A DNA stretch of 17,194 nucleotides from Thermotogota bacterium (GTDB taxonomy: Bacteria; Thermotogota; Thermotogae; Petrotogales; Petrotogaceae), in contig JBNJGY010000019.1 in NCBI GenBank assembly GCA_051748045.1, positions 1 to 17,194 of the forward strand, in the 5' to 3' direction. The position numbers and the translations under genes were made by a program. How positions within the stretch are numbered: the stretch's first letter is position 1; each line of letters starts with the position of its first letter. The notes below the pieces were generated by a model. The model saw only the letters and a list, made by a program, of their open reading frames with translations. It was not told the DNA's origin and searched no databases. Below, piece after piece: positions 3,604-17,194 of this stretch.

Positions 3604-4752
3604 ATGATTGAAAGTAGTAAATCTTCATCAGGAGATGTACTTAGATACGGAATGGTTGGAGGAGGACCTGGGTCTTTTATTGGAGATGTACATAGAAGAG
3701 CAATAGGTTTACAAGGGAATATGGAGCTTGTAGCGGGAAGTTTTTCTTCTGAATATCAAGAAACTCTTGAAACTGCTGAAAGTTTACATATAGATAAAAA
3801 AAGAGCTTATAAAGATTACAAAGAAATGGCAGAAAAAGAATCAGAGAGAGAAGATTGTATTGATTTTGTTAGTATAGTAACCCCTAATTTTTTACATTAT
3901 GATGTAGCAAAAACATTTTTAGAGAATGGAATTAATGTTGTTTGTGAAAAACCTATGGTTTTTAAAATAGAAGAAGCAGAAGAATTAGAGAAAATTGCAA
4001 CAGAGAAAGGATTGATTTTCGCTGTTTCATATACTTATTCCGGTAATGTAATGGTTAAACAAGCTAAAGAAATGGTAGATAATGGGGAAATAGGAGAAGT
4101 AAGAATGGTTATGGGAGAGTATCCTCAAGACTGGTTGGCTACAAAATTAGAAAATGAGGGTAATAGACAAGCTTCTTGGAGAACAGACCCTTCTAAAGCT
4201 GGAATAAGTAATGTTGTTGGGGATATAGGAAGTCATATAGAAAATACAGTCGCATTTATTACAGGATTGAAAATAAAAAAACTTTGTGCGGTTTTAGATA
4301 CTTTTGTTGAAGGAAGACCTTTAGATGATAATGCACAAATTTTGGTTAAGTATGATAACGGAGCAAGTGGAGTTTATTGGTGTTCTCAAATTGCAATAGG
4401 AAATGATAATGGATTAAAAGTGAGAATTTATGGAACAAAAGGTTCTTTAGAATGGGAACAAGAAGATCCAAATCATTTGAAATTCACTAAGTTAGGAAAG
4501 AATCCAATAATTATGTCAAGAGGTCGTGCTGATATGGAAGATTTGGCAGAAAAATATTCAAGATTACCAGCAGGTCATCCAGAAGGATATTTTGAAGCTT
4601 ATGCGAATCTATATTCTGCTATTTATGAAAAATTGACTAAAAAGACTAAAAATATTGAATTTACAACTGTTTCTGATGGATTGAATGGAGTAAAATTTAT
4701 TAATAAAGTAGTTGAAAGCCATAAAAGAGGCAATGTTTGGGTTGAATTATAA
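3604..4752 (+). CDS. Gfo/Idh/MocA family NAD(P)-dependent oxidoreductase
   Basis: Rossmann YGMVGGGPGSFIG, IVTPNFLH, VCEKP, WR, GDIGSH and C-terminal PAGHPEGY. GGGGGAG RBS. Confidence 0.92.
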   Translation: MIESSKSSSGDVLRYGMVGGGPGSFIGDVHRRAIGLQGNMELVAGSFSSEYQETLETAESLHIDKKRAYKDYKEMAEKESEREDCIDFVSIVTPNFLHYDVAKTFLENGINVVCEKPMVFKIEEAEELEKIATEKGLIFAVSYTYSGNVMVKQAKEMVDNGEIGEVRMVMGEYPQDWLATKLENEGNRQASWRTDPSKAGISNVVGDIGSHIENTVAFITGLKIKKLCAVLDTFVEGRPLDDNAQILVKYDNGASGVYWCSQIAIGNDNGLKVRIYGTKGSLEWEQEDPNHLKFTKLGKNPIIMSRGRADMEDLAEKYSRLPAGHPEGYFEAYANLYSAIYEKLTKKTKNIEFTTVSDGLNGVKFINKVVESHKRGNVWVEL

Positions 4753-4765
4753 GGGAGGATTTTGA

Positions 4766-5755
4766 ATGAGTAGACCAATAACAATTTTTACAGGACAGTG
4801 GACAGATTTATCTTTTGAAGAAATATGTAAAAAAGCATCAGAATGGGGCTATGATGGTCTTGAAATAGCTTGTTGGGGAGATCATTTTGACGTCACAAAA
4901 GCTTTAAGCCAAGAAGATTATGTAGATTATATAAAGGAAACTTTAGAAAAATATGATTTAAAGTGTTGGGCTTTAGGAGCACATTTAGCTGGTCAATGTG
5001 TTGGAGATGTGTATGATAAAAGACTAGATACTTTTGCACCAGAAGAATTAGCAGGTGATCCAGAAGCTATAAGAGAATGGGGAATAAAAGAGATGAAAGA
5101 TATAGCTAAAGCTGCGAAGAAATTAGGTGTGAAGGTTGTTACAGGATTTATGGGCTCTCCTATTTGGAAATATTGGTATTCATTTCCACCTACTCCTCAA
5201 GAAATGGTTGATGAGGGATTTAATATGATTAAAGAGTTATGGGGTCCTATTTTTGATGTTTTTGATGAAAATGGAATAAAATTTGCTTTAGAAGTACACC
5301 CGACAGAAATTGCGTTTGATTATTATTCAACTGAAAAATTGTTAAATACATTTGATAATAGAGAAGCTTTAGGAATTAATTTTGATCCAAGTCATTTAAT
5401 ATGGCAAGGGGTTAATCCAGCTATATTTTTAAGAGATTTTGCTTCTAAAATATATCATGTACACATGAAAGATGCGAAAGTTCTTTTAGATGGCAAATCT
5501 GGAATATTAGGTTCACATATTTCTTTTGGAGATCAAAGAAGAGGTTGGAACTTTAGATCGTTAGGTCATGGAAGTGTAAATTTTGAAGAAATCACTCGAG
5601 AGTTAAACGCTATGAACTATTTAGGCCCTTTATCTGTTGAATGGGAAGATAACGGAATGGATAGAGACTGGGGAGCGAAAGAATCTTTAGAGTTTACAAG
5701 AAAATATAATTTTGGTGCTTCTACTAAAGCTTTTGATAAAGATATGAAAAAATAA
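4766..5755 (+). CDS. Xylose-isomerase-like TIM-barrel protein (sugar phosphate isomerase/epimerase, IolE/AP-endonuclease-2 superfamily)
   Basis: GYDGLEI, ALEVHP, NFDPSH, HVHMKD and SVEWED supply the E/D/H/E metal ligands typical of the fold. Confidence 0.88.
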   Translation: MSRPITIFTGQWTDLSFEEICKKASEWGYDGLEIACWGDHFDVTKALSQEDYVDYIKETLEKYDLKCWALGAHLAGQCVGDVYDKRLDTFAPEELAGDPEAIREWGIKEMKDIAKAAKKLGVKVVTGFMGSPIWKYWYSFPPTPQEMVDEGFNMIKELWGPIFDVFDENGIKFALEVHPTEIAFDYYSTEKLLNTFDNREALGINFDPSHLIWQGVNPAIFLRDFASKIYHVHMKDAKVLLDGKSGILGSHISFGDQRRGWNFRSLGHGSVNFEEITRELNAMNYLGPLSVEWEDNGMDRDWGAKESLEFTRKYNFGASTKAFDKDMKK

Positions 5756-5767
5756 GGGGTTTTAAAA

Positions 5768-7273
5768 ATGGATAACATAATTCTTGAAACTAAAGGTATA
5801 TCAAAAGAATTTTCAGGGGTTAGAGTATTAAACGATATATCGATTGGTATAAAAAAAGGAGAGATTTTCGGTATTATAGGCGAAAATGGTGCTGGTAAAT
5901 CCACACTTATGAAAATTTTAAGCGGTATATATCATCCCACAGAAGGAGAAATATATTTTAATGGTCAAAAAGTTGATATTAAAAATAGAATAATATCTAA
6001 AGAATTAGGAATAACTATGATTCCACAAGAATTTAATCTGATTAATACACTAAATGTTTATGAAAATATTTTTTTAGGAAATGAGTATAAAAAGTCTATT
6101 CTTTTAGATAAGAATCATATGAAACAAAAAACAAATAAATTACTTGAAGATTTAAATACAAAAATATCTCCTGAATCAAAAATCCAAGATTTGAGTGTTG
6201 CACAAAAACAAATGGTTGAAATTGCTAAAGCTATGGCTTATGATTCAAAAATATTGATAATGGATGAGCCTACTACAGTGTTAACCAGGAATGAAATCGA
6301 CATTCTTTATGATCTAATGAAATCATTAAAAGAAAGAGGAGTTTCTATCTTATTCATTTCTCACAAATTAAATGAAGTAAAAAAAATATGTGACAGAGTA
6401 ATGGTTTTGAGAGATGGAGATATGATAGGCATTAGTGAAAATAAAGATATTGATGAAGAAGAAATGGCGAAAAAGATGGTTGGGAGAGAGTTAAGTGAAA
6501 TTTTCCCTGAAAAAAGCGATGTTGATGGAGATGTAAAACTTAAAATTGTTGATTTATTTTTAGATGATATTTTGAAAAATATTAATTTTTATCTTAAAAA
6601 AGGAGAAATTTTAGGTTTTTCAGGATTGGTTGGGTCTGGAAGAACAGAGTTGATGGAAACAATTTTTGGAATAAGGAAGAAAACCAGTGGAAAGATTTTT
6701 AAAGACAATGAAGAAATAACTATTAAAAATCCATCTGACGCATTCAAAAATAAAATAGCTTATCTTTCAGAAGATAGACAGGATAAAGGTTTAATTATGA
6801 ATTTTGATATACCACAAAATATTAGTTTAATATCCTTAAAAAAATATTCTAAAATACTTATAAACAAAAGAAAAGAGAAAAAGAAATCAGAAGAATATAT
6901 TAAAGAATTTGAGATAAGAGCAGCGTCTTTAAAAAATTTATTGATAAAACTAAGTGGTGGTAATCAACAAAAAGTTTATTTGTCTAAGCTAATGGATACA
7001 GACCCAGAAATTTTGATTTTAGACGAACCCACAAGGGGAATAGATGTAAACGCCAAAAGAGAATTTTATAAATTTATTAAACAGTTATCCGAAAAAGGTA
7101 TTTCTGTGATTATTGTATCTTCAGAATTAGAAGAGTTAATAGGGATGTGTAATAGGGTATATGTTATGAAAGAAGGAGAAATAAAAGGAGCGGTTGAAGA
7201 AGAAAAGATAACTGAAGAAAATATCATGTTTTATGCAACAGGTATAAAGGAAAGGAGAGAAACCAATGGCTGA
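5768..7273 (+). CDS. CUT2 monosaccharide ABC transporter, tandem ATP-binding protein (RbsA/XylG/MglA-like)
   Basis: GENGAGKST, ILIMDEPT, second domain GLVGSGRTE, EDR, LSGGNQQK, LDEPTRGID. Confidence 0.95.
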   Translation: MDNIILETKGISKEFSGVRVLNDISIGIKKGEIFGIIGENGAGKSTLMKILSGIYHPTEGEIYFNGQKVDIKNRIISKELGITMIPQEFNLINTLNVYENIFLGNEYKKSILLDKNHMKQKTNKLLEDLNTKISPESKIQDLSVAQKQMVEIAKAMAYDSKILIMDEPTTVLTRNEIDILYDLMKSLKERGVSILFISHKLNEVKKICDRVMVLRDGDMIGISENKDIDEEEMAKKMVGRELSEIFPEKSDVDGDVKLKIVDLFLDDILKNINFYLKKGEILGFSGLVGSGRTELMETIFGIRKKTSGKIFKDNEEITIKNPSDAFKNKIAYLSEDRQDKGLIMNFDIPQNISLISLKKYSKILINKRKEKKKSEEYIKEFEIRAASLKNLLIKLSGGNQQKVYLSKLMDTDPEILILDEPTRGIDVNAKREFYKFIKQLSEKGISVIIVSSELEELIGMCNRVYVMKEGEIKGAVEEEKITEENIMFYATGIKERRETNG

Positions 7274-8219
7274 AAAACAAAAAAGAAGATTTGATTATAG
7301 TAAATACGCTCCTCTAATAGCATTAGTTGTTTTATTTGTTATATCTGCTGTTTCGAGTCCATATTTCTTGCATACAAGAAATATATTGAATATATTAAGG
7401 CAAATTTCTTATACAGGATATATAGCTTTGGGTATGACTTTTGTAATTATATCAGGAGGAATTGATCTTTCTGTAGGTTCAATGGTAGCTTTAGCAGGTG
7501 GAATTGGAATTATCACTTTGAATGCAGCTGGTGGTGGAGTATGGGCTATTGTTTTAACTATTTTAGTTACTCTTGCAGTTGGAGCGGGTTTTGGCGCTTT
7601 GAATGGAATTGTTATTACAAAAGGTAAAATAGCACCTTTCATTGCAACTTTGGGTACTATGTCTATATATAGAAGTTTGACTCTTTATATTAGTTCTGCG
7701 GGAGAGTATAGGTCTCAGAGTATGATGTATCCAAATATTGGTTCTGGTAGTTTTCTTGGTATTCCTATACCGATTTGGTTGTTTTTTCTAATGGCTGTTA
7801 TTTATCACATATTATTAAATAATACAAGATTTGGTAGATATGTTTGTGCTGTTGGTTCTAATGATAAAGTGGCGAAGTATTCAGCTATCAAAGTAAATTG
7901 GATTAAATTTTTAACATACGCAATAACTGGTTTTTCAGTTGGACTTAGTGCAATTATGCTTTCTTCAAGGCTCAATTCAGTAAGTTCATCAAATACTGGG
8001 CTTGGGTACGAATTAGATGCTATAGCAGCTGTAATAATAGGTGGTACAGCGTTGACAGGAGGAAGTGGAAGTATTATAGGTACTGTTATTGGTGCTATGA
8101 TACTTGGAATAATAAACAACATGTTGAATATGCTGGGAGTATCACCATATTTACAAGGTACTGTTAAAGGTATAGTTATTATTTCAGCAGTTCTCATGCA
8201 ATATAAAAAAGAAAGATAA
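7266..8219 (+). CDS. CUT2 ABC transporter permease (RbsC-like)
   Basis: GMTFVIISGGIDLSVGS, PFIATLG, TRFGR, YELDAIAAVIIGG; multiple hydrophobic segments. Overlaps the ATPase gene by 8 nt. Confidence 0.95.
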   Translation: MAEKQKRRFDYSKYAPLIALVVLFVISAVSSPYFLHTRNILNILRQISYTGYIALGMTFVIISGGIDLSVGSMVALAGGIGIITLNAAGGGVWAIVLTILVTLAVGAGFGALNGIVITKGKIAPFIATLGTMSIYRSLTLYISSAGEYRSQSMMYPNIGSGSFLGIPIPIWLFFLMAVIYHILLNNTRFGRYVCAVGSNDKVAKYSAIKVNWIKFLTYAITGFSVGLSAIMLSSRLNSVSSSNTGLGYELDAIAAVIIGGTALTGGSGSIIGTVIGAMILGIINNMLNMLGVSPYLQGTVKGIVIISAVLMQYKKER

Positions 8220-8245
8220 TATCTTTCAGGAGGTGTCAGGGGATT

Positions 8246-9202
8246 ATGAAAAAACTTATTGTGGTATCGTTGGTATTCGTTTTATTGTTGACTATGGGTT
8301 TTGCAGCTAAGTATAGAATAGGAGTTTCTATTCCAAGTGCAGATCATGGTTGGACAGGAGGTATTGTGTTCTGGGCGGAAAGAGCGATAAAAGATTGGGA
8401 AGAAAAAAATCCAGATTTAGATTTTTTCTTAGTTACAGCTGATAATTCAGCGAAACAAGTTGGAGATGTTGAGGATTTAATGGTTAAACAAATCGATGCA
8501 TTGGTTATATTACCTCATGATTCAGCTTCTTTGACTCCAATTGTTTCAGAAGTGTATGAAGAAGGTATTTTCACTGTTGTTGTAGATAGAGGTTTAACAG
8601 AAAATGCTCAAGATGTTTATATTGCTGGAAATAACCCAGGACTAGGAAGAGTATCTGGAGAATGGTTAGCAAAAGAAATGAATGGTGAAGGAAAAGTTGT
8701 AGTATTAGAGGGTATTCCTACAGTTATAAATACAGAAAGAGTAGAAGCTTTTAACGAAGTTATTTCTCAATATCCTGATATTGAAATTTTAGATTCTCAA
8801 CCAGCTTATTGGTCAACTCAAAGAGGATTAGAAATAATGGAAAACTATTTACAAAAATATCCAGAAATAGATGCAGTTTGGGCTCAAGATGACGACGTTT
8901 TAAAAGGTGTTTTGCAAGCTTATAAAGAATCAGGAAGAGATGATATCAATATAATGCTTGGTGGCGCTGGTTCAAAAGATATTATTAAAATGATTATGGA
9001 GGGCGATCCTTTAGTAAGAGCTGATGTAACTTATCCACCTTCAATGATAGCATCAGGAATTTCTTTGGCTGTCAACGGAGTTCAAGGTAAAGGATTAGAA
9101 GGATTTTATCAACAAAAGATTCCTTCAAGAATTATACTTGCTGCTGAATTAATAACTAGAGAAAATGCTGAAGAATATTACGTACCAGAATCAATTTATT
9201 AA
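8246..9202 (+). CDS. Sugar ABC transporter periplasmic solute-binding protein (type I PBP)
   Basis: Sec signal peptide MKK-hydrophobic-GFA with no lipobox Cys; VVVDR, ERVEAF, YPEIDAVWAQDD. Confidence 0.92.
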   Translation: MKKLIVVSLVFVLLLTMGFAAKYRIGVSIPSADHGWTGGIVFWAERAIKDWEEKNPDLDFFLVTADNSAKQVGDVEDLMVKQIDALVILPHDSASLTPIVSEVYEEGIFTVVVDRGLTENAQDVYIAGNNPGLGRVSGEWLAKEMNGEGKVVVLEGIPTVINTERVEAFNEVISQYPDIEILDSQPAYWSTQRGLEIMENYLQKYPEIDAVWAQDDDVLKGVLQAYKESGRDDINIMLGGAGSKDIIKMIMEGDPLVRADVTYPPSMIASGISLAVNGVQGKGLEGFYQQKIPSRIILAAELITRENAEEYYVPESIY

Positions 9203-9211
9203 TGAAGTGTT

Positions 9212-9234
9212 GGAGGGGTAACCCCCTCCTTTTT
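9212..9234 (+). terminator. Intra-operon GC-rich hairpin with T tract (partial terminator or mRNA stabiliser)
   Basis: GGAGGGG-TAAC-CCCCTCC-TTTTT between the binding-protein gene and xylA. Confidence 0.65.
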
Positions 9235-9251
9235 CAAAGGAGTGAAAATAG

Positions 9252-10568
9252 ATGAATCAATTTTTTAAAGATGTTTCAAAAATTAAATATGAAGGTCCAA
9301 ATTCTAAAAATCCTTTAGCTTTTCATCATTATGATCCAGAAGAAATGATTAATAATAAAAAAATGTCTGACCATTTAAGATTTTCAGTAGCTTATTGGCA
9401 TACGCTTACTTCTGATAATTCTGATATGTTTGGAGTAGGAACAGCTGAGAAAAAATGGAATGATATAAATGATCCCATAGATAAATCTTATGCAAGATTT
9501 GATGCTATGTTAGAGTTTTTAGATAAAACGGGTATTGAATATTTTTGTTTTCATGATAGAGATCTGATTGATGAAGCTGAAACTTTGAGAGGAACTAATA
9601 AAAGATTAGATAAAATTGTTAAGTATATAAAAGATAATATAAAAGGAACTGATAAAAAAATACTTTGGGGAACGCAAAACATGTTCACTAACCCTAGGTT
9701 TATGCATGGTGCTGCAACATCGCCAATAAGTGATATTTTTGCTTATGCTTCTGCACAAACAAAAAAAGCTCTTGAAATTAGTAAAGAATTAAATGCACAA
9801 GGCCATGTTTTTTGGGGTGGAAGAGAAGGATATGAAACTTTACTAAATACAGATATGAAAAAAGAATTAGATAATTTAGCTTATTTTTTACATATGGCAG
9901 TTGATTACGCGAAAGAAATAGATTTTGATGGACAGTTTTTAATAGAACCAAAACCAAAAGAGCCAACAAAACATCAGTATGATTTTGATGTGGCAAATTC
10001 TTATGCATTTTTACAGAGATATAATTTAGATAAATTCTTTAAATTTAACGTAGAAGCTAATCACGCCCAACTTGCAACACACTCTTTTCAGCATGAATTA
10101 AATTATGCTAGAATAAATGGGATTTTAGGAAGTGTGGATGCTAACATTGGTGATTTTTTCTTAGGTTGGGATACTGATCAATTTGCTACTAATGTTTATG
10201 AAAATACATTTGCAATGTATGAAATATTGAAAAATGGAGGTATTTCTCCAGGTGGTCTAAATTTTGATGCTAAAGTAAGAAGAAGCTCTTATGAAGACAT
10301 AGATCTATTTTATGCCCATATAGCTTCAATGGATGCGTATGCAATTGCCCTTAAAAAAGCTAAGAAAATAATTGAATCAAAAACTCTTGAAAAATTTGTT
10401 GAAGAAAGATATGATAGTTATAATAAAGGTATAGGAGAAAAAATTAAAAATAAACAAACATCTTTTAAAGATTTAGAAAGCTATATTCTTGATAAATCTG
10501 ATATAAAAATTCCTTCTGGAAGACAAGAACTTTTAGAAAGAATGGTAAATGATATATTGTTTAATTAA
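9252..10568 (+). CDS. xylA: Xylose isomerase, class II
   Basis: [58 protein letters not shown]; 438 aa. Confidence 0.97.
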
Positions 10569-10582
10569 GAGGGGGAAGAGCC

Positions 10583-11755
10583 TTGAAGATCAATACAATA
10601 AATTCAGAACACATGGGATACTCCAATAAATTGTTAATATTAAATCTTATAAGAAGAAATCCAGGGATTTCTAGAAAAGAATTAGCTAAAGTCACTAATT
10701 TAGATAAGAGTACTATAACAAAAATAACTAATAATTTAATTGATAGAAATATAGTGGCTGAAGAAGGAACAAAAGTTAGAAAAACTCCTGGAAGAAAATC
10801 AATAAGGTTAATACCAGTAAAGAAATCAGCTGAGGCTCTTGTAGTAAAAGTGGGTGTTGAAGAAACTCATTTTGGAAAAGGTTATTTGAATAATGAATAT
10901 GAAGTGATTGAAAAATTTAAAACACCTAAAGATTTTAATAGTTTTATAAAATTATTAGTCGAAAAAATAAAAAATATTGATTATACTAATGAAAAACTAG
11001 TAGGAATTTCTTTTTCTATTCCAGGTATGGTTGATAGAGACAATAGATTTATTGAATCAGCTCCTCATTTGAATTGGACAAATGTAAGTTTAGAAGAAGA
11101 ATTAAAAAAAGAAATGAAAGAATGGGTTAAACCTGTGATGGTTGCTAACGAAGCGAAGTTATCTTTATTATCTGAAAAATATTCTAATAAAAATATAAAA
11201 AGGATTCATAACGGTGTATATATTTTTATTTCTCAAGGTATTGGAGGAGCTATTTTATTAGATGGAAAAATTATTTTAGGGCCTTCAAACACAGCTGGTG
11301 AATTTGGACATATGAGTTTAGAACCAGATGGAGAAAAATGTTCTTGCAATAATTTAGGTTGTTGGGAAAATTACGTTTCAATTGATACAACTGTTAATGA
11401 GTTCGGTGATATAAAAGGTGAAAACTCTGAAGAAAAGTTTATTGAATTATTGAAATTATATAATAAGGATGAAAAGGCTAAAGAAGTTATAGACAGACAA
11501 ATTTATTACATAGGTTTTGGTGTGTCTAATTTGGTAAATATATTAAATCCTGAATTTATTATTTTGGGAGGAAATGGATTCCATTTTTCTGATGAAATTT
11601 TAGATGGGATTAAAAAAGAGATTAAGAATAGAAGTTTATCTCATGCATCTGAAAAATTAAATATTGTTAAACCTTATCATAATATTGTTGAAGCATGTAT
11701 GTTAGGCTCTAACTTAATGATTATGGATGAATTTTCAAAACTAATAATATCTTGA
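10583..11755 (+). CDS. xylR: ROK-family transcriptional repressor (XylR)
   Basis: N-terminal wHTH (ISRKELAKVTNLDKSTIT, GRK), ROK motifs PG.VD, NEA, GIGG and GEFGH...CSCNNLGCWE. TTG start with GAGGGG RBS. Located between xylA and xylB. Confidence 0.88.
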   Translation: MKINTINSEHMGYSNKLLILNLIRRNPGISRKELAKVTNLDKSTITKITNNLIDRNIVAEEGTKVRKTPGRKSIRLIPVKKSAEALVVKVGVEETHFGKGYLNNEYEVIEKFKTPKDFNSFIKLLVEKIKNIDYTNEKLVGISFSIPGMVDRDNRFIESAPHLNWTNVSLEEELKKEMKEWVKPVMVANEAKLSLLSEKYSNKNIKRIHNGVYIFISQGIGGAILLDGKIILGPSNTAGEFGHMSLEPDGEKCSCNNLGCWENYVSIDTTVNEFGDIKGENSEEKFIELLKLYNKDEKAKEVIDRQIYYIGFGVSNLVNILNPEFIILGGNGFHFSDEILDGIKKEIKNRSLSHASEKLNIVKPYHNIVEACMLGSNLMIMDEFSKLIIS

Positions 11756-11771
11756 AAAAGAAGGGCTAATT

Positions 11772-13223
11772 ATGAATTATTTGGGGATTGATATAGGGAC
11801 TAGTTCTATCAAAAGTATAGTGTTAAATGAAAAGAATGAAATAGTTGAACAATACAGTTATCCTTTAGAAGTGATAAACAAAAAAAATAATTATTCTGAA
11901 CAATCACCAGAAAAATGGTTGGTAGGAGTTAAATCATGTATTAAAAACATAAAATCAAAAATAAAATCTGTATCGTTCTCAGGCCAAATGCACACTTTAG
12001 TTCCATTAGATAAAAATGGAGATGTTATAAGAGATGCGATTTTATGGAATGATGGTAGATCTACAAATGAATGTAAGGAAGCGACAGAACTATTGGGTGG
12101 AGAAGAAAGTGTTCTTTCTATAACAGGTAATTCTTTGTTAGAGGGCTTTACTTTGCCTAAGTTATTATGGATAAAAAATAATGAACCTGAAAATTATAAT
12201 AAAATTTATAAAGTTTTATTACCTAAGGATTATATAATTTACAAACTAACTGGTAACATTGGTATTGATTATTCGGATGCTTCAGGAACAAGTTTTTTAG
12301 ATATAAAAAATAATAAATGGTCAGATGATTTGTTAGATAAATTGAAAATTCCAAAAGAAATATTACCAGATATTTATAATTCAAATGATTTTAGAGGTTA
12401 TTTGAATTATAGTAAGCAAAAGAATGTTATGGTTTATTCTGGTGGTGCAGATAATGCTATTTCTGCGTTTGGAAATGGAGTTTTGGAGACTGGAGATACT
12501 ATTATAAGTTTAGGCACTTCTGGAACAGTCTTAGCTATCACAGAAAAAAAAGAATCAGACAAAAAAGGACAAATTCATTTTTTTAATCATGTAATTAAAG
12601 ATAAAAAATATTATATGGGGGTTATGTTATCAGCAACCAGTTCTTTAGATTGGTTTTTGAAAAACATCGGAAACGATATTAGTTTAGATGATGTAGAAGA
12701 CATTATAAAAGATATTAAACCTGGAAACGATAAAGTAATTTTTTTGCCTTATTTAAATGGTGAAAGAACCCCTTTAAAAGACCCAACTGCAAGAGGTGTT
12801 TTTTTTGGTATTAAAAATACTACAACAAAAAATGATTTATTAAGAAGTGTAATTGAAGGTATATCATTTGGTATTGCACAGAGTTATGATCTTGTGAAAC
12901 AGAAAACGGATATAAAAGAAATAAGAATAACTGGTGGTGGAAGTAAAAATAAAGAATGGGTAAAAATAATAGCATCTATAATCAAAGAACCTATCGGAAT
13001 TCCAAAGGCTGAAAATGGAGGGGCTTTTGGAGCAGCGTTAATGGCGAAATATTCACAGAAAGATATTACATTACCAAATATTAAGGATATAACAGGTATT
13101 AAAGAATATATATATCCAGATGAATATTATTCTAAAGTATATAATACCTTATTCCCTGAATATATAAAGGTTACAAAAAACGTTATGGAGAATTTTCACT
13201 CGTTAAACTCTCTTAATTTTTAG
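11772..13223 (+). CDS. xylB: Xylulokinase (FGGY family)
   Basis: GIDIGTSS, SGQMH, ILWNDGR, LLPKDY, SDASGT, GGADN, SLGTSG, FLPYLNGERTP, GGGS; context with xylA. Confidence 0.95.
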   Translation: MNYLGIDIGTSSIKSIVLNEKNEIVEQYSYPLEVINKKNNYSEQSPEKWLVGVKSCIKNIKSKIKSVSFSGQMHTLVPLDKNGDVIRDAILWNDGRSTNECKEATELLGGEESVLSITGNSLLEGFTLPKLLWIKNNEPENYNKIYKVLLPKDYIIYKLTGNIGIDYSDASGTSFLDIKNNKWSDDLLDKLKIPKEILPDIYNSNDFRGYLNYSKQKNVMVYSGGADNAISAFGNGVLETGDTIISLGTSGTVLAITEKKESDKKGQIHFFNHVIKDKKYYMGVMLSATSSLDWFLKNIGNDISLDDVEDIIKDIKPGNDKVIFLPYLNGERTPLKDPTARGVFFGIKNTTTKNDLLRSVIEGISFGIAQSYDLVKQKTDIKEIRITGGGSKNKEWVKIIASIIKEPIGIPKAENGGAFGAALMAKYSQKDITLPNIKDITGIKEYIYPDEYYSKVYNTLFPEYIKVTKNVMENFHSLNSLNF

Positions 13224-14544: not shown

Positions 14545-14571
14545 AAAAAAACCAGGCTTATAGCCTGGTTT
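14545..14571 (-). terminator. Intrinsic terminator after efp
   Basis: Plus strand AAACCAGGCT-TAT-AGCCTGGTTT preceded by an A run, giving a U tract on the minus strand. Lies 8 nt past the efp stop. Confidence 0.85.
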
Positions 14572-14579
14572 GATTGTAT

Positions 14580-15137
14580 TTATGCTCTTGAAGAATATTG
14601 ACCTGTTGTGGTGTCTATTACTATTTTTTCACCAATATTAACAAAAAGTGGGACGTTTACTTCATATCCTGTAGACAATTTTGCTGGTTTTAGTGGATTC
14701 CCTGTTGAGTCTCCTTTTTCACCTGGTTCTGTATATTCTACTTCCAATACAACATTTTTTGGAAGTGAGAATGATACAGGTCTACTTTCGTGGAAGGAAA
14801 CATTTACTATTCCTTGTTCAGCTAGGAAGTTTATAACATCTCCAAGGTCGTCTTCATGTACTTCTATTTGTTCATAGGTTTCGTTATCCATTAAGGCATA
14901 AAAGTCTCCACTTTTATAAATGTATTGCATTTCTTTTTGGTCTAACATGACATCATCTACTTTTTCAGAACCTTTCATTGTTGTATCTAAAGTAGATCCG
15001 TTTTCAAGGTTTTTCATTTTTAGAGTAACTGTGGCAGCGTTTCTGCCCGACCAGTTATATTTGGATTTTAAAACAGAATATAGGTCTCCATTCATTTGAA
15101 TTACATACCCTGGCTTTAAATCTGCAGCTGTGATCAT
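14580..15137 (-). CDS. efp: Elongation factor P, Arg32 (EarP-associated) type
   Basis: KNL.NG, YEQIE, TEPG.KGD, KPAKLSTG and VPLFVNIGEKIVIDT motifs. The loop is NWSG-R32-NAA rather than PGKG. AGGAGG RBS at 15152-15147. Confidence 0.97.
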   Translation of the reverse strand: MITAADLKPGYVIQMNGDLYSVLKSKYNWSGRNAATVTLKMKNLENGSTLDTTMKGSEKVDDVMLDQKEMQYIYKSGDFYALMDNETYEQIEVHEDDLGDVINFLAEQGIVNVSFHESRPVSFSLPKNVVLEVEYTEPGEKGDSTGNPLKPAKLSTGYEVNVPLFVNIGEKIVIDTTTGQYSSRA

Positions 15138-15179
15138 ATTCTAATTCCTCCTGTATTTATTATTTTCAATTGTAATATA

Positions 15180-16133
15180 CTATAAAAAGGTTACTTTTTT
15201 TATTAAAAAACTTTGAAGATTTGTTTTATTTTGAAGATGTGTTTTAATATTTTCAAATACATACATAAATATACCATAATTTTCTTCAAAATAGATTAAA
15301 ATTTTGTGTAAATCATTTTCTGATAATTCTTCAATATCATTTAAGTAGTTTATAATTTTTTGATAATTTATCTTTATCTTTGAATATTTTTCAAAGAATG
15401 GATTTATATAATCTAAGAAAGCATTTACTTTCAAATGGTGTATGTTATTTTTTTGTTTATAGGCTTCCCAAAAAAATGGTATACCTGAGTTCAAGGCCAA
15501 TTGAAATGAATCTTCACCTCTTATCCAGTTATATTTTGCACCATATACATATGAATCGAATTCTTTTTGAGGTAAGAAAGGCATTTTTTCTAGATTTGTG
15601 TCTTCCTTATAACCCCAAATTGTACCTGTTTTTAAAGTTTTTAATACTTTTTCTGGTGTGTATAAATACACATTATTTTTTGTTTTGTTTATTGATTTAT
15701 TAATTGGGTAGTTTAAAACTCCTGCACTTTTTTGAGTTAAGCCAGGAACTATGAATTCAACAGGTATTTTTAATCCATTTATAAAACTAATTCTATTGTT
15801 AGCTTCACTAGCCCAATCTTCAGTAGTAAAATAATCTATGATAAAAGCTTTTGTAGCTGATTTATTTATTTTTTTTAAAATATTTTGATCTGGTATATAT
15901 TGAAACATAAAAAATATAATATCATTTTTTTCATCATATTCATTTATGTTTTTTATTTTCAGCTTTGTATTTGGAATGAGTTTATAAAACAAATCTTTAT
16001 AATCTGTATAGATTGTTATTTTTTCTGGAGTAGTAAATTCTGACATAGCTGATGCCAGCCTAATTGTGAAACCAGCATCTCCAAAATTGTCTATTATTTT
16101 AGAAAAAAAAGCCAATTTCAATTTTTTAACCAC
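15180..16133 (-). CDS. earP: EarP-like EF-P arginine glycosyltransferase (rhamnosyltransferase family), short and divergent; true start may be TTG at 16121
   Basis: IIDNFGDAG..RLA, DYFTTEDW, PGLTQKSAG, PFLPQKEFD and NWIRGEDSF...PFFWEAYKQ...HHLKVNAFL correspond to EarP motifs DN(F/Y)GDIG, EYLSAExW, PGF, PFxxQxxxD and RGEDS...WxxYxQ. Directly upstream of an R32 efp. Confidence 0.9.
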   Translation of the reverse strand: MVKKLKLAFFSKIIDNFGDAGFTIRLASAMSEFTTPEKITIYTDYKDLFYKLIPNTKLKIKNINEYDEKNDIIFFMFQYIPDQNILKKINKSATKAFIIDYFTTEDWASEANNRISFINGLKIPVEFIVPGLTQKSAGVLNYPINKSINKTKNNVYLYTPEKVLKTLKTGTIWGYKEDTNLEKMPFLPQKEFDSYVYGAKYNWIRGEDSFQLALNSGIPFFWEAYKQKNNIHHLKVNAFLDYINPFFEKYSKIKINYQKIINYLNDIEELSENDLHKILIYFEENYGIFMYVFENIKTHLQNKTNLQSFLIKKVTFL

Positions 16134-17065
16134 TTTTCAAGATAAAAATCAACAGTCTCTTCTAATTCTTCTGTAAAATTTCTTCTGTTATAGTCAAAGA
16201 TTTTTCTTAATTTTTCATCTGCCATATGATATTTAAAGTCATGATAAATTCTTTCATTTTTATAATCAAAATATTCCAGAAAATTATTTTTCAATTCTAT
16301 TTTTTTTGATACCATTTCATAGATTAGTTTTAATAAATCTAAGTTTTTAATAGTGTTTTTGGAAGATAGATTGTATATACCGAGATTAATATTTTTTTCA
16401 ATCATTTTATTTATGAAAAAGCTAGTTTCTTTTGTATGTACCCATGTTCTGAAATTTTCTCCTTTGTTATATAAAGAAAGCTTTTCGTTGTTAATCAACG
16501 ATTTTATATATTTTGGTATTAGTTTTTCTTCATTCTGATACGGTCCAAAGTTGTTTGTTAATCTTAATATATAAGTTCTTAAATTATGAGTTTTTCTATA
16601 CGATTCTACATATAAATCAGCAGATGCTTTGCTTACAGCATAAGGATTACTTGGGGATAATTTATCTGTTTCGCTTTTTGGATATGAGCTTTCTCCATAT
16701 ACTTCGTCTGTTGATATTTGGATAAATTTAATTTTTGAATGGATAGAATTAAGTAGATTTAAAACTCCTTGAATGTTGTTAATTAAAAATTCATTAGGCT
16801 TTCTAAAAGCATTATCCACATGTGATTCTGCTGCAAAGTTGATTATATAATCAGGTTTGAAATCATCTATAACATTTTTAATTTTTGGATTGTTTATATC
16901 GAGTTGTAAAAAGTTAAAATTTCTGTTATCAATGTCTTTTATATTTGAGTTTGCAGCGTAAGTCATTTTGTCTATTCCAAAAATTCTATGATTAGTATTT
17001 TTGAGTGTGTATTTTATATAATTAAAACCTATAAAACCAGCACAACCTGTTACCATTAATTTCAT
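16118..17065 (-). CDS. rmlB: dTDP-glucose 4,6-dehydratase-like extended SDR (RmlB/RfbB), divergent
   Basis: TGCAGFIG, DKMTYA, FAAESHVD, ISTDEVYG, PYAVSK (YxxxK), NNFGPYQ..EKLIP. AGGAGGG RBS at 17078-17072. Confidence 0.85.
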   Translation of the reverse strand: MKLMVTGCAGFIGFNYIKYTLKNTNHRIFGIDKMTYAANSNIKDIDNRNFNFLQLDINNPKIKNVIDDFKPDYIINFAAESHVDNAFRKPNEFLINNIQGVLNLLNSIHSKIKFIQISTDEVYGESSYPKSETDKLSPSNPYAVSKASADLYVESYRKTHNLRTYILRLTNNFGPYQNEEKLIPKYIKSLINNEKLSLYNKGENFRTWVHTKETSFFINKMIEKNINLGIYNLSSKNTIKNLDLLKLIYEMVSKKIELKNNFLEYFDYKNERIYHDFKYHMADEKLRKIFDYNRRNFTEELEETVDFYLEKWLKN

Positions 17066-17194
17066 CAGAATCCCTCCTAAAAATGTTTCAATATATTATA
17101 TAATATTGTATATCAAAAATAAAATTAATGGTATAATTTTAATATAAAAATGATTAATGAATTTTTTATTTATATTTAAAGTAGGGGTGCCCCT

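What the first reader, a model, noticed from the sequence alone, without database searches (positions are those of the whole stretch)
14580..17065. Three-gene rmlB-like - earP - efp(R32) module: an EF-P glycosylation system with its own sugar-nucleotide dehydratase
Seen: three co-oriented genes, rmlB overlapping earP, 42 nt between earP and efp, and a terminator after efp. No rmlA, rmlC or rmlD is present in the window. Established: EarP transfers rhamnose from dTDP-beta-L-rhamnose (made by RmlABCD) to EF-P Arg32 in Pseudomonas, Shewanella and Neisseria. earP-efp adjacency is usual there, while rml genes normally sit in polysaccharide loci. Inference: a lone dehydratase coupled to earP either boosts donor supply, or, if the genome lacks rmlC/D, points to a different 6-deoxy or keto sugar and therefore a new EF-P modification.
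Basis: partly seen in the sequence, partly recalled or inferred. Interest (0 to 1): 0.82.

Follow-up and report, generated by a model that had tools for sequence, protein, structure and literature searches.

The report
EF-P rhamnosylation operon with rml genes
This is an ordinary, already described gene cluster in which a bacterium of the Petrotogaceae family keeps its translation factor EF-P next to the enzyme that attaches rhamnose to it and next to some of the genes that make the rhamnose donor.

Summary
The three genes exist on the minus strand: a divergent rmlB-like dehydratase (17065..16118), earP (16133..15180) and efp with Arg32 (15137..14580).

The "lone dehydratase" is an effect of the window edge. 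The window ends at a 100-N scaffold gap. rmlC lies on the same strand 448 nt upstream of rmlB, beyond that gap. The genome also holds rmlD and a long-form rmlA, each above its curated cut-off.

A complete dTDP-L-rhamnose route is therefore present, and ordinary Arg32 rhamnosylation is the best reading. The new-sugar alternative has no support.

Related genomes show rmlC-rmlB'-earP-efp (same genus) or rmlC-rmlD-earP-efp (two other genera). None of 76 EarP loci outside Thermotogota had an rml gene in its flanks.

This arrangement is already in print. Brewer & Wagner 2024 note that the horizontally acquired earP-efp of Geotoga and Oceanotoga co-occurs with rfbB, rfbC and rfbD.

Small residual points:
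- The earP-linked RmlB is a long-branch paralogue, 35-37% identical to canonical family RmlBs and below the NCBIfam cut-off.
- It is the only RmlB candidate in this assembly.
- The EarP is about 60 residues shorter than the solved ones.

The parts
14549..14571 (-). intrinsic-terminator-like hairpin (10-bp stem, 5 G-C pairs, 3-nt loop) followed by TTTTATTATA, 9 nt after the efp stop
   Evidence: L015 571..549, equal to window 14571..14549. 3 terminator-like sites were found against 0.9 expected in shuffles.
14580..15137 (-). efp, 185 aa, EarP-type EF-P with Arg32 in the loop W29-S30-G31-R32-N33-A34-A35. It is the only efp in the genome. AGGAGG lies upstream of the ATG.
   Evidence: TIGR00038 221.8 bits, cut-off 185.8; single efp in G000; 70-92% identical to the efp of the six EarP-carrying relatives in which an efp was found, 34-42% to the efp of 16 relatives where EarP was not found; loop residues of P. 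putida EF-P.
15180..16133 (-). earP, 317 aa from GTG 16133 (313 aa if from TTG 16121). Short-form EF-P arginine rhamnosyltransferase.
   Evidence: PF10093 118 bits, cut-off 25; TIGR03837 111.8, below cut-off 347.05; motif alignment to solved EarPs; model matches EarP structures.
16118..17065 (-). rmlB' (divergent dTDP-glucose 4,6-dehydratase-like SDR), 315 aa. AGGAGGG ribosome-binding site lies upstream of the ATG. The stop overlaps the earP start.
   Evidence: TIGR01181 268.8 bits, below cut-off 365.1; next best galE 90; full-length matches to solved RmlBs, with TDE, YxxxK and NNxGP conserved; only RmlB-like gene in G000; long-branch clade.
17066..17194 (-). A+T-rich leader upstream of rmlB', ending in the G+C-rich palindrome AGGGGCACCCCT (17183-17194) at the edge of a 100-N scaffold gap. 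Beyond the window lie the mirror copy of the palindrome, a C-terminal fragment of a REP-associated tyrosine transposase gene on the opposite strand, and then rmlC (contig C19:17514-18026, minus strand).
   Evidence: palindrome: 1 match, 0 expected; NF047646 33 bits, E 4.9e-8, fragment only, below cut-off 80; rmlC. The promoter scan is not informative (32 sites against 30.2 expected).

Best explanation
This is a horizontally acquired EarP-type EF-P activation operon in a Petrotogaceae bacterium. The genus is probably Geotoga, judged from the names that public records give to the closest RmlB' relatives.

Proposed pathway:
1. A family-wide long-form RmlA makes dTDP-glucose.
2. The operon-encoded RmlB' dehydrates it to dTDP-4-keto-6-deoxyglucose.
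3. RmlC, encoded directly upstream, epimerises it.
4. An unlinked RmlD reduces it to dTDP-beta-L-rhamnose.
5. EarP transfers the rhamnose, with inversion, to Arg32 of the cell's only EF-P. The modified EF-P then relieves ribosome stalling at polyproline.

Coupling of rmlB' to earP (overlapping stop and start) and to efp (42-nt spacer, one terminator after efp) ties donor supply to enzyme and target.

Shown here: gene content, order and overlaps, conserved catalytic residues, completeness of the pathway in the genome, and conservation of rml-earP-efp linkage in related genera.

Inferred: the enzymatic activities, the identity of the sugar, and co-transcription.
For: Families and residues:
- EarP: PF10093 scores 118 bits. 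D15 and D19 sit in the DNFGD motif. R205-G-E207-D208-S209, F186, Q189, F192 and Y225 align with the residues that Krafczyk 2017 lists as invariant or TDP-Rha-binding: D13, D17, R271, E273, D274, S275, F252, Q255, F258, Y291.
- The 13 best Foldseek PDB hits of the model are all EarP (E 7.6e-12 to 9.1e-9, TM 0.52-0.60).
- EF-P has S30-G31-R32-N33 and no Pro at position -2, as in rhamnosylated P. putida EF-P. It is the only efp in the genome.
- RmlB' matches solved dTDP-glucose 4,6-dehydratases end to end (E 1e-55 to 2e-41). GxxGxxG, T-D-E, YxxxK, NNxGP, the Arg of the xRxW motif and the R..HD..Y motif are kept.

Pathway in the same genome:
- RmlC scores 172.6 (cut-off 155.75), RmlD 263.6 (cut-off 224.05) and long RmlA 496 (cut-off 320.25).

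Conservation in relatives:
- rmlC-rmlB'-earP-efp is contiguous in the same-genus genome G001. rmlC-rmlD-earP-efp occurs in G009 and G003.
- All 8 of 8 EarP-positive family genomes have RmlC and RmlD over cut-off. Among the 18 genomes where EarP was not found, 6 have RmlC and 4 have RmlD.

Literature:
- PMC11388002 (passages) reports earP-efp of Geotoga petraea and Oceanotoga teriensis co-occurring with rfbB, rfbC and rfbD.
- PMC4471567 (passages) shows that EF-P from a P. aeruginosa mutant deficient in dTDP-L-rhamnose synthesis (rmlC disrupted) is unmodified, and that EarP uses dTDP-L-rhamnose in vitro.

RNA libraries (weak support):
- Contigs from four metatranscriptome runs (two studies) carry pieces of efp of 151-326 nt, identical or with one differing base. 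One run carries an identical 151-nt piece of earP. DNA carry-over in these libraries is not excluded.
Against: - RmlB' is below the NCBIfam equivalog cut-off (268.8 against 365.1). It is only 35-37% identical to canonical RmlBs of the same family and sits on a long stem branch (0.99 changes per column). Public records name its Geotoga orthologues inconsistently: epimerase/dehydratase family, GDP-mannose 4,6-dehydratase, or dTDP-glucose 4,6-dehydratase.
- EarP is far below the TIGR03837 cut-off (111.8 against 347.05) and about 60 residues shorter than the solved EarPs. The model is weak in residues 131-199 (pLDDT below 50). Leu212 stands where P. putida has R278, one of the residues mutated in that study.
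- In this genome a gap plus a transposase fragment separates rmlC from rmlB'.
- No contig bridges two genes, so co-transcription is not shown.
- No mass-spectrometry or enzymatic data exist for any Petrotogaceae EF-P in the papers I read.
Confidence: 0.85

Rival explanations
1. The divergent RmlB' no longer makes the ordinary dTDP-4-keto-6-deoxyglucose intermediate, or acts on another nucleotide sugar. EarP would then attach a sugar other than L-rhamnose, giving a new EF-P modification.
For: - RmlB' lies below the TIGR01181 cut-off, on a long branch, and is 35-37% identical to canonical family RmlBs.
- The EarP here is short and has Leu where P. putida has R278.
- G001 keeps a canonical RmlB (474 bits) as well as RmlB', which would fit a separate role for RmlB'.
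Against: - All catalytic and most nucleotide-binding motifs of RmlB are kept. All 8 solved-structure matches with E up to 1e-40 are dTDP-glucose 4,6-dehydratases. The Gmd, CDP-glucose and UDP-GlcNAc dehydratase models score 25-78 bits against 268.8.
- rmlC is its conserved upstream neighbour, and rmlD and rmlA are present.
- In sister genera the same operon slot is held by rmlD, the last step of the rhamnose route.
- The TDP-Rha pocket residues of EarP are conserved.
- In this genome RmlB' is the only candidate for a step that RmlC and RmlD need.
Confidence: 0.04
2. RmlB' is a redundant, drifting paralogue. The real dehydratase step is supplied by a canonical rmlB that the 158-contig assembly missed, or by another SDR. 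The linkage to earP would then be a historical leftover without functional coupling.
For: - The same-genus genome G001 has a canonical RmlB (474 bits) next to a short-form RmlA on another contig.
- The assembly is fragmented and has a gap right at this locus.
- RmlB' has a long branch.
Against: - The genome is 99.65% complete by marker genes, and no other RmlB-like hit exceeds 64 bits. That best other hit is a TviC-like epimerase fragment.
- RmlB' is intact, full length and 74-82% identical across eight other sequence clusters and G001, with catalytic residues kept, which argues for purifying selection.
- The stop/start overlap with earP is conserved in G001.
Confidence: 0.08
3. The system is not active as a unit. 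Either EF-P works unmodified and EarP is inactive, or the three genes are transcribed separately.
For: - Co-transcription is not shown.
- The promoter scan is uninformative.
- Some Arg-type EF-Ps work without modification in E. coli tests (PMC12931083 abstract).
Against: - EarP's three catalytic acidic residues are invariant in all 7 Petrotogaceae EarPs aligned.
- earP-efp adjacency is kept in all 7 family genomes whose locus is not cut by a contig end, and in 72 of 76 loci elsewhere.
- Spacers are short or overlapping, with one terminator after efp.
- Every EarP-positive genome keeps RmlC and RmlD.
Confidence: 0.03

Closest known systems
efp-earP-rfb cluster of Geotoga petraea and Oceanotoga teriensis (Brewer & Wagner, Mol Biol Evol 2024, PMC11388002; follow-up PMC12931083)
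   Same: - Same bacterial family, and by protein names the same genus as one of the two species.
- Horizontally acquired Arg-EarP-type efp that replaced the native efp.
- earP adjacent, and rfbB, rfbC, rfbD genes beside it (Fig. 3 legend, read as a passage).
- My synteny matches: rmlC-rmlB'-earP-efp in one genus and rmlC-rmlD-earP-efp in two others.
   Different: - This window comes from a different genome: EF-P is 92%, RmlB' 79% and EarP 69% identical to the same-genus genome.
- An insert and scaffold gap lie between rmlC and rmlB'.
- No canonical second RmlB was found.
- In the passages I read, the paper does not discuss the divergence of the linked rml paralogues. Its supplements were not seen.
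EarP / EF-P(Arg32) rhamnosylation of Pseudomonas, Shewanella and Neisseria (PMC4471567, PMC5615199, PMC6544042; solved structures 5NV8, 5WXI, 6J7M)
   Same: - GT-B EarP with the DNxGD and RGEDS motifs and the aromatic TDP pocket.
- EF-P loop S-G-R-N with no proline at -2.
- earP next to efp.
- Donor dTDP-beta-L-rhamnose from RmlABCD.
   Different: - EarP here has 317 residues against about 375-385, and is 13-19% identical in structural alignment.
- It is below the NCBIfam equivalog cut-off.
- Trp29 stands where P. putida has Lys29, and Leu212 where it has R278.
- rml genes lie in the same cluster. They were absent from the flanks of all 76 non-Thermotogota loci examined.
rmlBDAC / rfbBDAC dTDP-L-rhamnose operons of polysaccharide loci (for example P. 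putida PP_1785-1782, PMC8184846)
   Same: The same four enzyme families are present in the genome. RmlB' keeps the catalytic T-D-E and YxxxK residues.
   Different: - The genes are dispersed: rmlA(long) on contig C2, rmlD on C34, and rmlC-rmlB' with earP-efp on C19.
- RmlB' and the linked RmlC score well below the canonical copies of the family: 268 against 395-511 bits, and 173 against 198-267 bits.
- No glycan-assembly genes are adjacent.
efp-epmA/epmB clusters of Lys34-type EF-P (beta-lysylation)
   Same: The logic is the same: the gene that makes the donor (EpmB makes beta-lysine; here RmlB' and RmlC make the dTDP-sugar) is linked to the modifying enzyme and the target. PMC11388002 notes that the lysine-EpmAB-type efp of Planctomycetota is flanked by epmB in most species.
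   Different: The enzymes and chemistry are unrelated, and the residue is Lys rather than Arg. The lysine 2,3-aminomutase gene about 4 kb away on this contig sits among lysine-fermentation genes and is not linked to efp (the function is assigned from recall of the sequence motifs, not tested).

Membership tests
EarP (PF10093 / TIGR03837, GT104 EF-P arginine rhamnosyltransferase) | Score above the curated Pfam gathering threshold | tested here: met
   PF10093 118 bits against 25, matched in two stretches.
EarP (PF10093 / TIGR03837, GT104 EF-P arginine rhamnosyltransferase) | Score above the NCBIfam equivalog cut-off | tested here: not met
   TIGR03837 111.8 bits against 347.05. The model is built mostly on ~370-residue proteobacterial EarPs, and this protein has 317 residues.
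EarP (PF10093 / TIGR03837, GT104 EF-P arginine rhamnosyltransferase) | Three invariant catalytic acidic residues (P. putida D13, D17, E273; PMC5615199) | tested here: met
   D15, D19 and E207 align in the DNFGD and IRGEDSF motifs. They are invariant in the 7 Petrotogaceae EarPs.
EarP (PF10093 / TIGR03837, GT104 EF-P arginine rhamnosyltransferase) | TDP-rhamnose pocket residues (F191, Y193, F252, Q255, F258, R271, D274, S275, R278, Y291) | tested here: inconclusive
   - F186, Q189, F192, R205, D208, S209 and Y225 align by register with F252, Q255, F258, R271, D274, S275 and Y291.
- Leu212 stands at the R278 position.
- The equivalents of F191 and Y193 (possibly Y156 and Y158) lie in a stretch that no alignment covered and where the model has pLDDT below 50.
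EarP (PF10093 / TIGR03837, GT104 EF-P arginine rhamnosyltransferase) | Fold like solved EarP structures | tested here: met
   Foldseek ranks 1-13 are all EarP chains (E 7.6e-12 to 9.1e-9, TM 0.52-0.60). The next hit is at E 6.7e-4. The model is only moderate (mean pLDDT 66.7).
EarP (PF10093 / TIGR03837, GT104 EF-P arginine rhamnosyltransferase) | Encoded next to an efp with Arg at the loop tip | tested here: met
   42-nt spacer to efp with R32.
EarP (PF10093 / TIGR03837, GT104 EF-P arginine rhamnosyltransferase) | Transfers L-rhamnose from dTDP-beta-L-rhamnose to EF-P Arg32 | not testable with these tools
   Needs MS, an antibody or an enzyme assay.
EarP-type EF-P | EF-P family score over cut-off, with three domains | tested here: met
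   TIGR00038 221.8 against 185.8. EFP_N, EFP and Elong-fact-P_C are all over their thresholds.
EarP-type EF-P | Loop S30-G31-R32-N33 and no proline two residues before the modified site (PMC6544042) | tested here: met
   W29-S30-G31-R32-N33-A34-A35. The P. putida loop residues K29, S30, G31, R32, N33, S34, A35 were read.
RmlB, dTDP-glucose 4,6-dehydratase (TIGR01181) | Score above the equivalog cut-off | tested here: not met
   268.8 bits against 365.1. Canonical family copies score 395-511.
RmlB, dTDP-glucose 4,6-dehydratase (TIGR01181) | Extended-SDR NAD motif GxxGxxG, catalytic Thr-Asp-Glu and YxxxK (the residue roles are recalled from the RmlB structural literature) | tested here: met
   GCAGFIG, STDEVYG and YAVSKAS align with the same motifs of 6BI4, 2HUN and 1G1A.
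RmlB, dTDP-glucose 4,6-dehydratase (TIGR01181) | Closest characterised relatives are dTDP-glucose 4,6-dehydratases over the full length | tested here: met
   The 8 PDB sequences with E up to 1e-40 are all dTDP-glucose 4,6-dehydratases and cover residues 1-315. Other sugar-nucleotide SDR models score 90 bits or less.
RmlB, dTDP-glucose 4,6-dehydratase (TIGR01181) | Converts dTDP-glucose to dTDP-4-keto-6-deoxyglucose | not testable with these tools
   Needs an enzyme assay or complementation.
Complete RmlABCD pathway in the genome | RmlA, RmlC and RmlD over their curated cut-offs | tested here: met
   TIGR01208 496.1 against 320.25, TIGR01221 172.6 against 155.75, and TIGR01214 263.6 against 224.05.

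The most novel reading that the evidence does not exclude
The long-branch, operon-bound RmlB' (with the linked divergent RmlC) has changed specificity, so that EarP in this genus puts a 6-deoxy or keto sugar other than L-rhamnose on Arg32. A milder version is more likely, at roughly one in three: in this genome the whole four-step dTDP-rhamnose pathway survives only to modify one arginine of one protein, and RmlB', RmlC and (in sister genera) RmlD have become dedicated, fast-evolving 'EF-P-only' paralogues.
Probability: 0.04. Interest if true: 0.7.

Novelty: already known. Interest (0 to 1): 0.18.

Why it matters
The finding matters little beyond correct annotation.

What it shows:
- The modification cassette of a core translation factor can travel between phyla and pick up parts of its donor-sugar pathway. 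This point was already made for Geotoga and Oceanotoga in 2024.
- The proposed 'new EF-P modification' rests on a window-edge effect and should not be pursued on this evidence.

Small practical gains:
- Public records name the linked dehydratase inconsistently. Context argues for dTDP-glucose 4,6-dehydratase.
- The short (~317-residue) Petrotogaceae EarP could serve as a minimal scaffold for studying arginine rhamnosylation.

Tried and rejected
- Promoter scan: 32 sigma-70-like sites against 30.2 expected in this A+T-rich DNA. It gives no information on where transcription starts.
- RNA evidence for co-transcription. Only short contigs from four metatranscriptome runs could be laid. None bridges rmlB'-earP or earP-efp. 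rmlB' had only 18-39-nt chance-like pieces. Parts without cover say nothing.
- A first Pfam scan of the ORF fragment beyond the gap found nothing meaningful. NCBIfam then gave a weak REP-associated tyrosine transposase match, below its cut-off.
- Idea that the 321-339-aa Pfam-less gene overlapping earP in G006, G004 and G012 is a new partner. Rejected: it follows a cell-division cluster (MraW, PBP), and this genome has a 38%-identical copy at an unrelated locus.
- Idea that the 710-aa gene downstream of rmlD is a second rhamnose user. It has no family hit and a lipoprotein-like N-terminus, and only fragments are conserved next to rmlD in G001. Not informative.
- Naming the nearest non-Geotoga relatives of RmlB'. 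They are mostly unnamed metagenome proteins, so no donor lineage could be named.
- The search of earlier findings returned nothing.
- Supplements of PMC11388002 (synteny figures and tables) could not be read. They may already show the exact gene order reported here.
Full report
**Observation**

The window is contig C19:1-17194 of a 2.41-Mb, 158-contig genome that is 99.65% complete by marker genes. Three ORFs lie head to tail on the minus strand:
- 17065..16118, 315 aa.
- 16133..15180, 317 aa.
- 15137..14580, 185 aa.

Family scans name them as follows:
- An extended SDR whose best model is dTDP-glucose 4,6-dehydratase. TIGR01181 scores 268.8 bits, below the 365.1 cut-off. The next best model is galE at 90.
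- EarP. PF10093 scores 118 bits against a cut-off of 25. TIGR03837 scores 111.8, below its 347.05 cut-off.
- EF-P. TIGR00038 scores 221.8 against 185.8.

EF-P carries Arg32 in W29-S30-G31-R32-N33-A34-A35.

The first two genes overlap by 16 nt if earP starts at GTG 16133. They overlap by 4 nt (TTGA) if it starts at TTG 16121, the position where the same-genus orthologue has ATG. The earP-efp spacer is 42 nt. A 10-bp hairpin with a T-run follows efp at 14571..14549.

**The window edge**

The window stops at 17194 because a run of 100 N follows (C19:17195-17294). Reading the contig onward shows, in order:
- A mirror copy of the palindrome AGGGGCACCCCT that ends the window.
- On the opposite strand, the C-terminal part of a REP-associated tyrosine transposase gene. 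NF047646 scores 33 bits at E 4.9e-8. Only a fragment is present and it is below the cut-off.
- rmlC on the same strand as the operon, at C19:17514-18026. TIGR01221 scores 172.6 against 155.75.

The rmlC stop lies 448 nt from the rmlB' start. In the same-genus genome G001 the two genes are 19-31 nt apart and the order rmlC-rmlB'-earP-efp is unbroken. The 'lone dehydratase' is therefore an effect of where the window was cut. In this genome it is compounded by an insertion and a scaffold gap.

**The rest of the pathway**

- rmlD lies on contig C34. TIGR01214 scores 263.6 against 224.05.
- A long-form rmlA lies on contig C2. TIGR01208 scores 496.1 against 320.25.
- The only RmlB-like gene in the assembly is the one in the window. 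The next hit, at 64 bits, is a TviC-like epimerase fragment.
- There is a single efp in the genome.

The dTDP-L-rhamnose route is thus complete, with RmlB' as its only visible dehydratase.

**Is RmlB' a real RmlB?**

- It aligns end to end with solved dTDP-glucose 4,6-dehydratases (6BI4, 2HUN, 1G1A and others, E 1e-55 to 2e-41). It keeps GxxGxxG, S-T-D-E, YxxxK, NNxGPYQxxEKLIP, the Arg of the xRxW motif and R..HD..Y. The functional roles of these motifs are recalled from the RmlB literature and were not tested here.
- It is nevertheless odd. It is 35-37% identical to the canonical RmlBs of its own family, including the second RmlB of G001.
- Close relatives (74-82% identity) form a small group that includes Geotoga petraea records. 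Identity then drops to 44% or less.
- In a 52-row tree it sits on a stem of 0.99 changes per column. It stands apart from a well-supported group holding the canonical Petrotogaceae RmlBs and the RmlBs of five EarP-carrying genomes (four named as Proteobacteria, one Fibrobacter MAG). Long-branch caveats apply.
- Public names for its orthologues disagree.

**Is EarP a real EarP?**

- D15 and D19 (in DNFGD) and E207 (in IRGEDSF) align with the three invariant catalytic residues of P. putida EarP.
- F186, Q189, F192, R205, D208, S209 and Y225 align with TDP-rhamnose pocket residues.
- Leu212 replaces R278.
- The protein is about 60 residues shorter than solved EarPs, mostly between the two domains.
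- A shallow-alignment AlphaFold model (pLDDT 66.7, poor in residues 131-199) still finds EarP structures as its 13 best PDB matches.

**Relatives**

- EarP was found in 8 of 61 related genomes, counting the window's own. That is 7 of 25 other genomes of the family and 0 of 35 outside it.
- Gene orders are rmlC-rmlB'-earP-efp (G000, G001), rmlC-rmlD-earP-efp (G009, G003) and earP-efp alone (G006, G004, G012). G016 is cut by a contig end.
- All 8 EarP-positive genomes have RmlC and RmlD over cut-off. Of the 18 where EarP was not found, 6 have RmlC and 4 have RmlD. Two of those six are only 62-68% complete.
- Long RmlA is nearly universal in the family (24 of 26). Canonical RmlB is in 16 of 26, but not in G000, G003 or G012.
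- An efp was found in six of the seven other EarP-positive genomes, and each is 70-92% identical to the window's. None was found in G016 with this query. The 16 genomes where EarP was not found but an efp was have an efp 34-42% identical. No genome had more than one efp.
- The earP-linked RmlCs group together with moderate support (85/79). The earP-linked RmlD of G009 and G003 is only 43-45% identical to the unlinked RmlD of G000.
- Among the 80 best of 480 EarP loci in the species-representative genome collection, 76 lie outside Thermotogota. Of these, 72 have efp beside earP and none has an Rml hit of 100 bits or more in the fetched flanks. 59 of the 76 have at least 3 kb upstream of earP. 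No Fusobacteria or Treponema loci were in this sample.

**Literature**

- Rajkovic 2015 (PMC4471567, passages) and Krafczyk 2017 (PMC5615199, passages) establish the EarP mechanism.
- Brewer & Wagner 2024 (PMC11388002, passages) report that Geotoga petraea and Oceanotoga teriensis carry a horizontally transferred Arg-EarP efp. Their Fig. 3 legend states that these efp genes co-occur with earP and with rfbB, rfbC and rfbD.
- A 2026 follow-up (PMC12931083, passages) repeats that Geotoga and Oceanotoga replaced their ancestral EF-P.
- The gene arrangement is therefore in print for this genus. I did not see the supplements.

**Expression**

Contigs from four metatranscriptome runs of two studies hold pieces of efp of 151-326 nt, identical or with one differing base. 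One run holds an identical 151-nt piece of earP. This is weak evidence, because DNA carry-over is possible, and no contig bridges two genes.

**Verdict**

This is an ordinary EarP/EF-P rhamnosylation operon that has picked up rmlC and a divergent rmlB. The new-sugar idea loses its premise. What remains mildly interesting is the set of fast-evolving, operon-bound rml paralogues, and the possibility that in this genome the pathway serves EF-P alone.

Noticed in passing
window 17183-17194 and contig C19:17195-17520 (L015 3183-3520): A G+C-rich palindrome (AGGGGCACCCCT) flanks both sides of a 100-N scaffold gap. Beyond it lies the C-terminal fragment of a REP-associated tyrosine transposase-like gene on the plus strand (NF047646 33 bits, below cut-off). 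The whole insert sits between rmlC and rmlB' and is absent from the same-genus genome G001.
   Followed up: partly
contig C19:18284-23240 (L015 4284-9240), just beyond the window: A run of genes that look like a lysine-fermentation cluster. The reading rests on translations only and the names are recalled, not tested: two CoA-transferase-like subunits, a thioesterase-like protein, a 3-keto-5-aminohexanoate cleavage-like enzyme, a diaminohexanoate dehydrogenase-like protein and a lysine 2,3-aminomutase-like radical SAM enzyme. The aminomutase is close to efp but is not in an EpmB-type context.
   Followed up: no
window 3604-13223: A sugar-utilisation block on the plus strand: a GFO/IDH/MocA oxidoreductase, a xylose-isomerase-like TIM barrel, an ABC ATPase, a permease, a periplasmic binding protein, a 438-aa protein with no Pfam family (9252-10568), a ROK regulator and an FGGY kinase.
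   Followed up: no
G003 (whole genome; earP locus on L030): This relative has rmlC-rmlD-earP-efp and a long rmlA, but no RmlB-like hit at E of 1e-40 or better in a 94%-complete, 230-contig assembly. Either the gene is unassembled or another enzyme does the dehydratase step.
   Followed up: no
L038 and L039 (two Rhodocyclales/Rhodocyclaceae MAG contigs): These hold the closest EarP relatives outside Thermotogota (32% identity, 107-117 bits). No efp appears in the 6-kb flanks, unlike 72 of the 76 other loci.
   Followed up: no
L029 7454-8419, L031 7367-8386, and G000:C4:51020-51982: In three relatives earP-efp follows a cell-division cluster (MraW, a small ORF, a PBP transpeptidase) and a conserved 321-339-aa protein with no Pfam family that overlaps the earP start. 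The window's genome has a 38%-identical copy at an unrelated locus, so it is not specific to earP.
   Followed up: partly
G000:C34:9385-11517 (L016 5386-7518, minus strand): A 710-aa protein with a lipoprotein-like signal sequence and no Pfam or NCBIfam family lies directly downstream of the unlinked rmlD. Only C-terminal fragments are conserved at that place in G001.
   Followed up: partly
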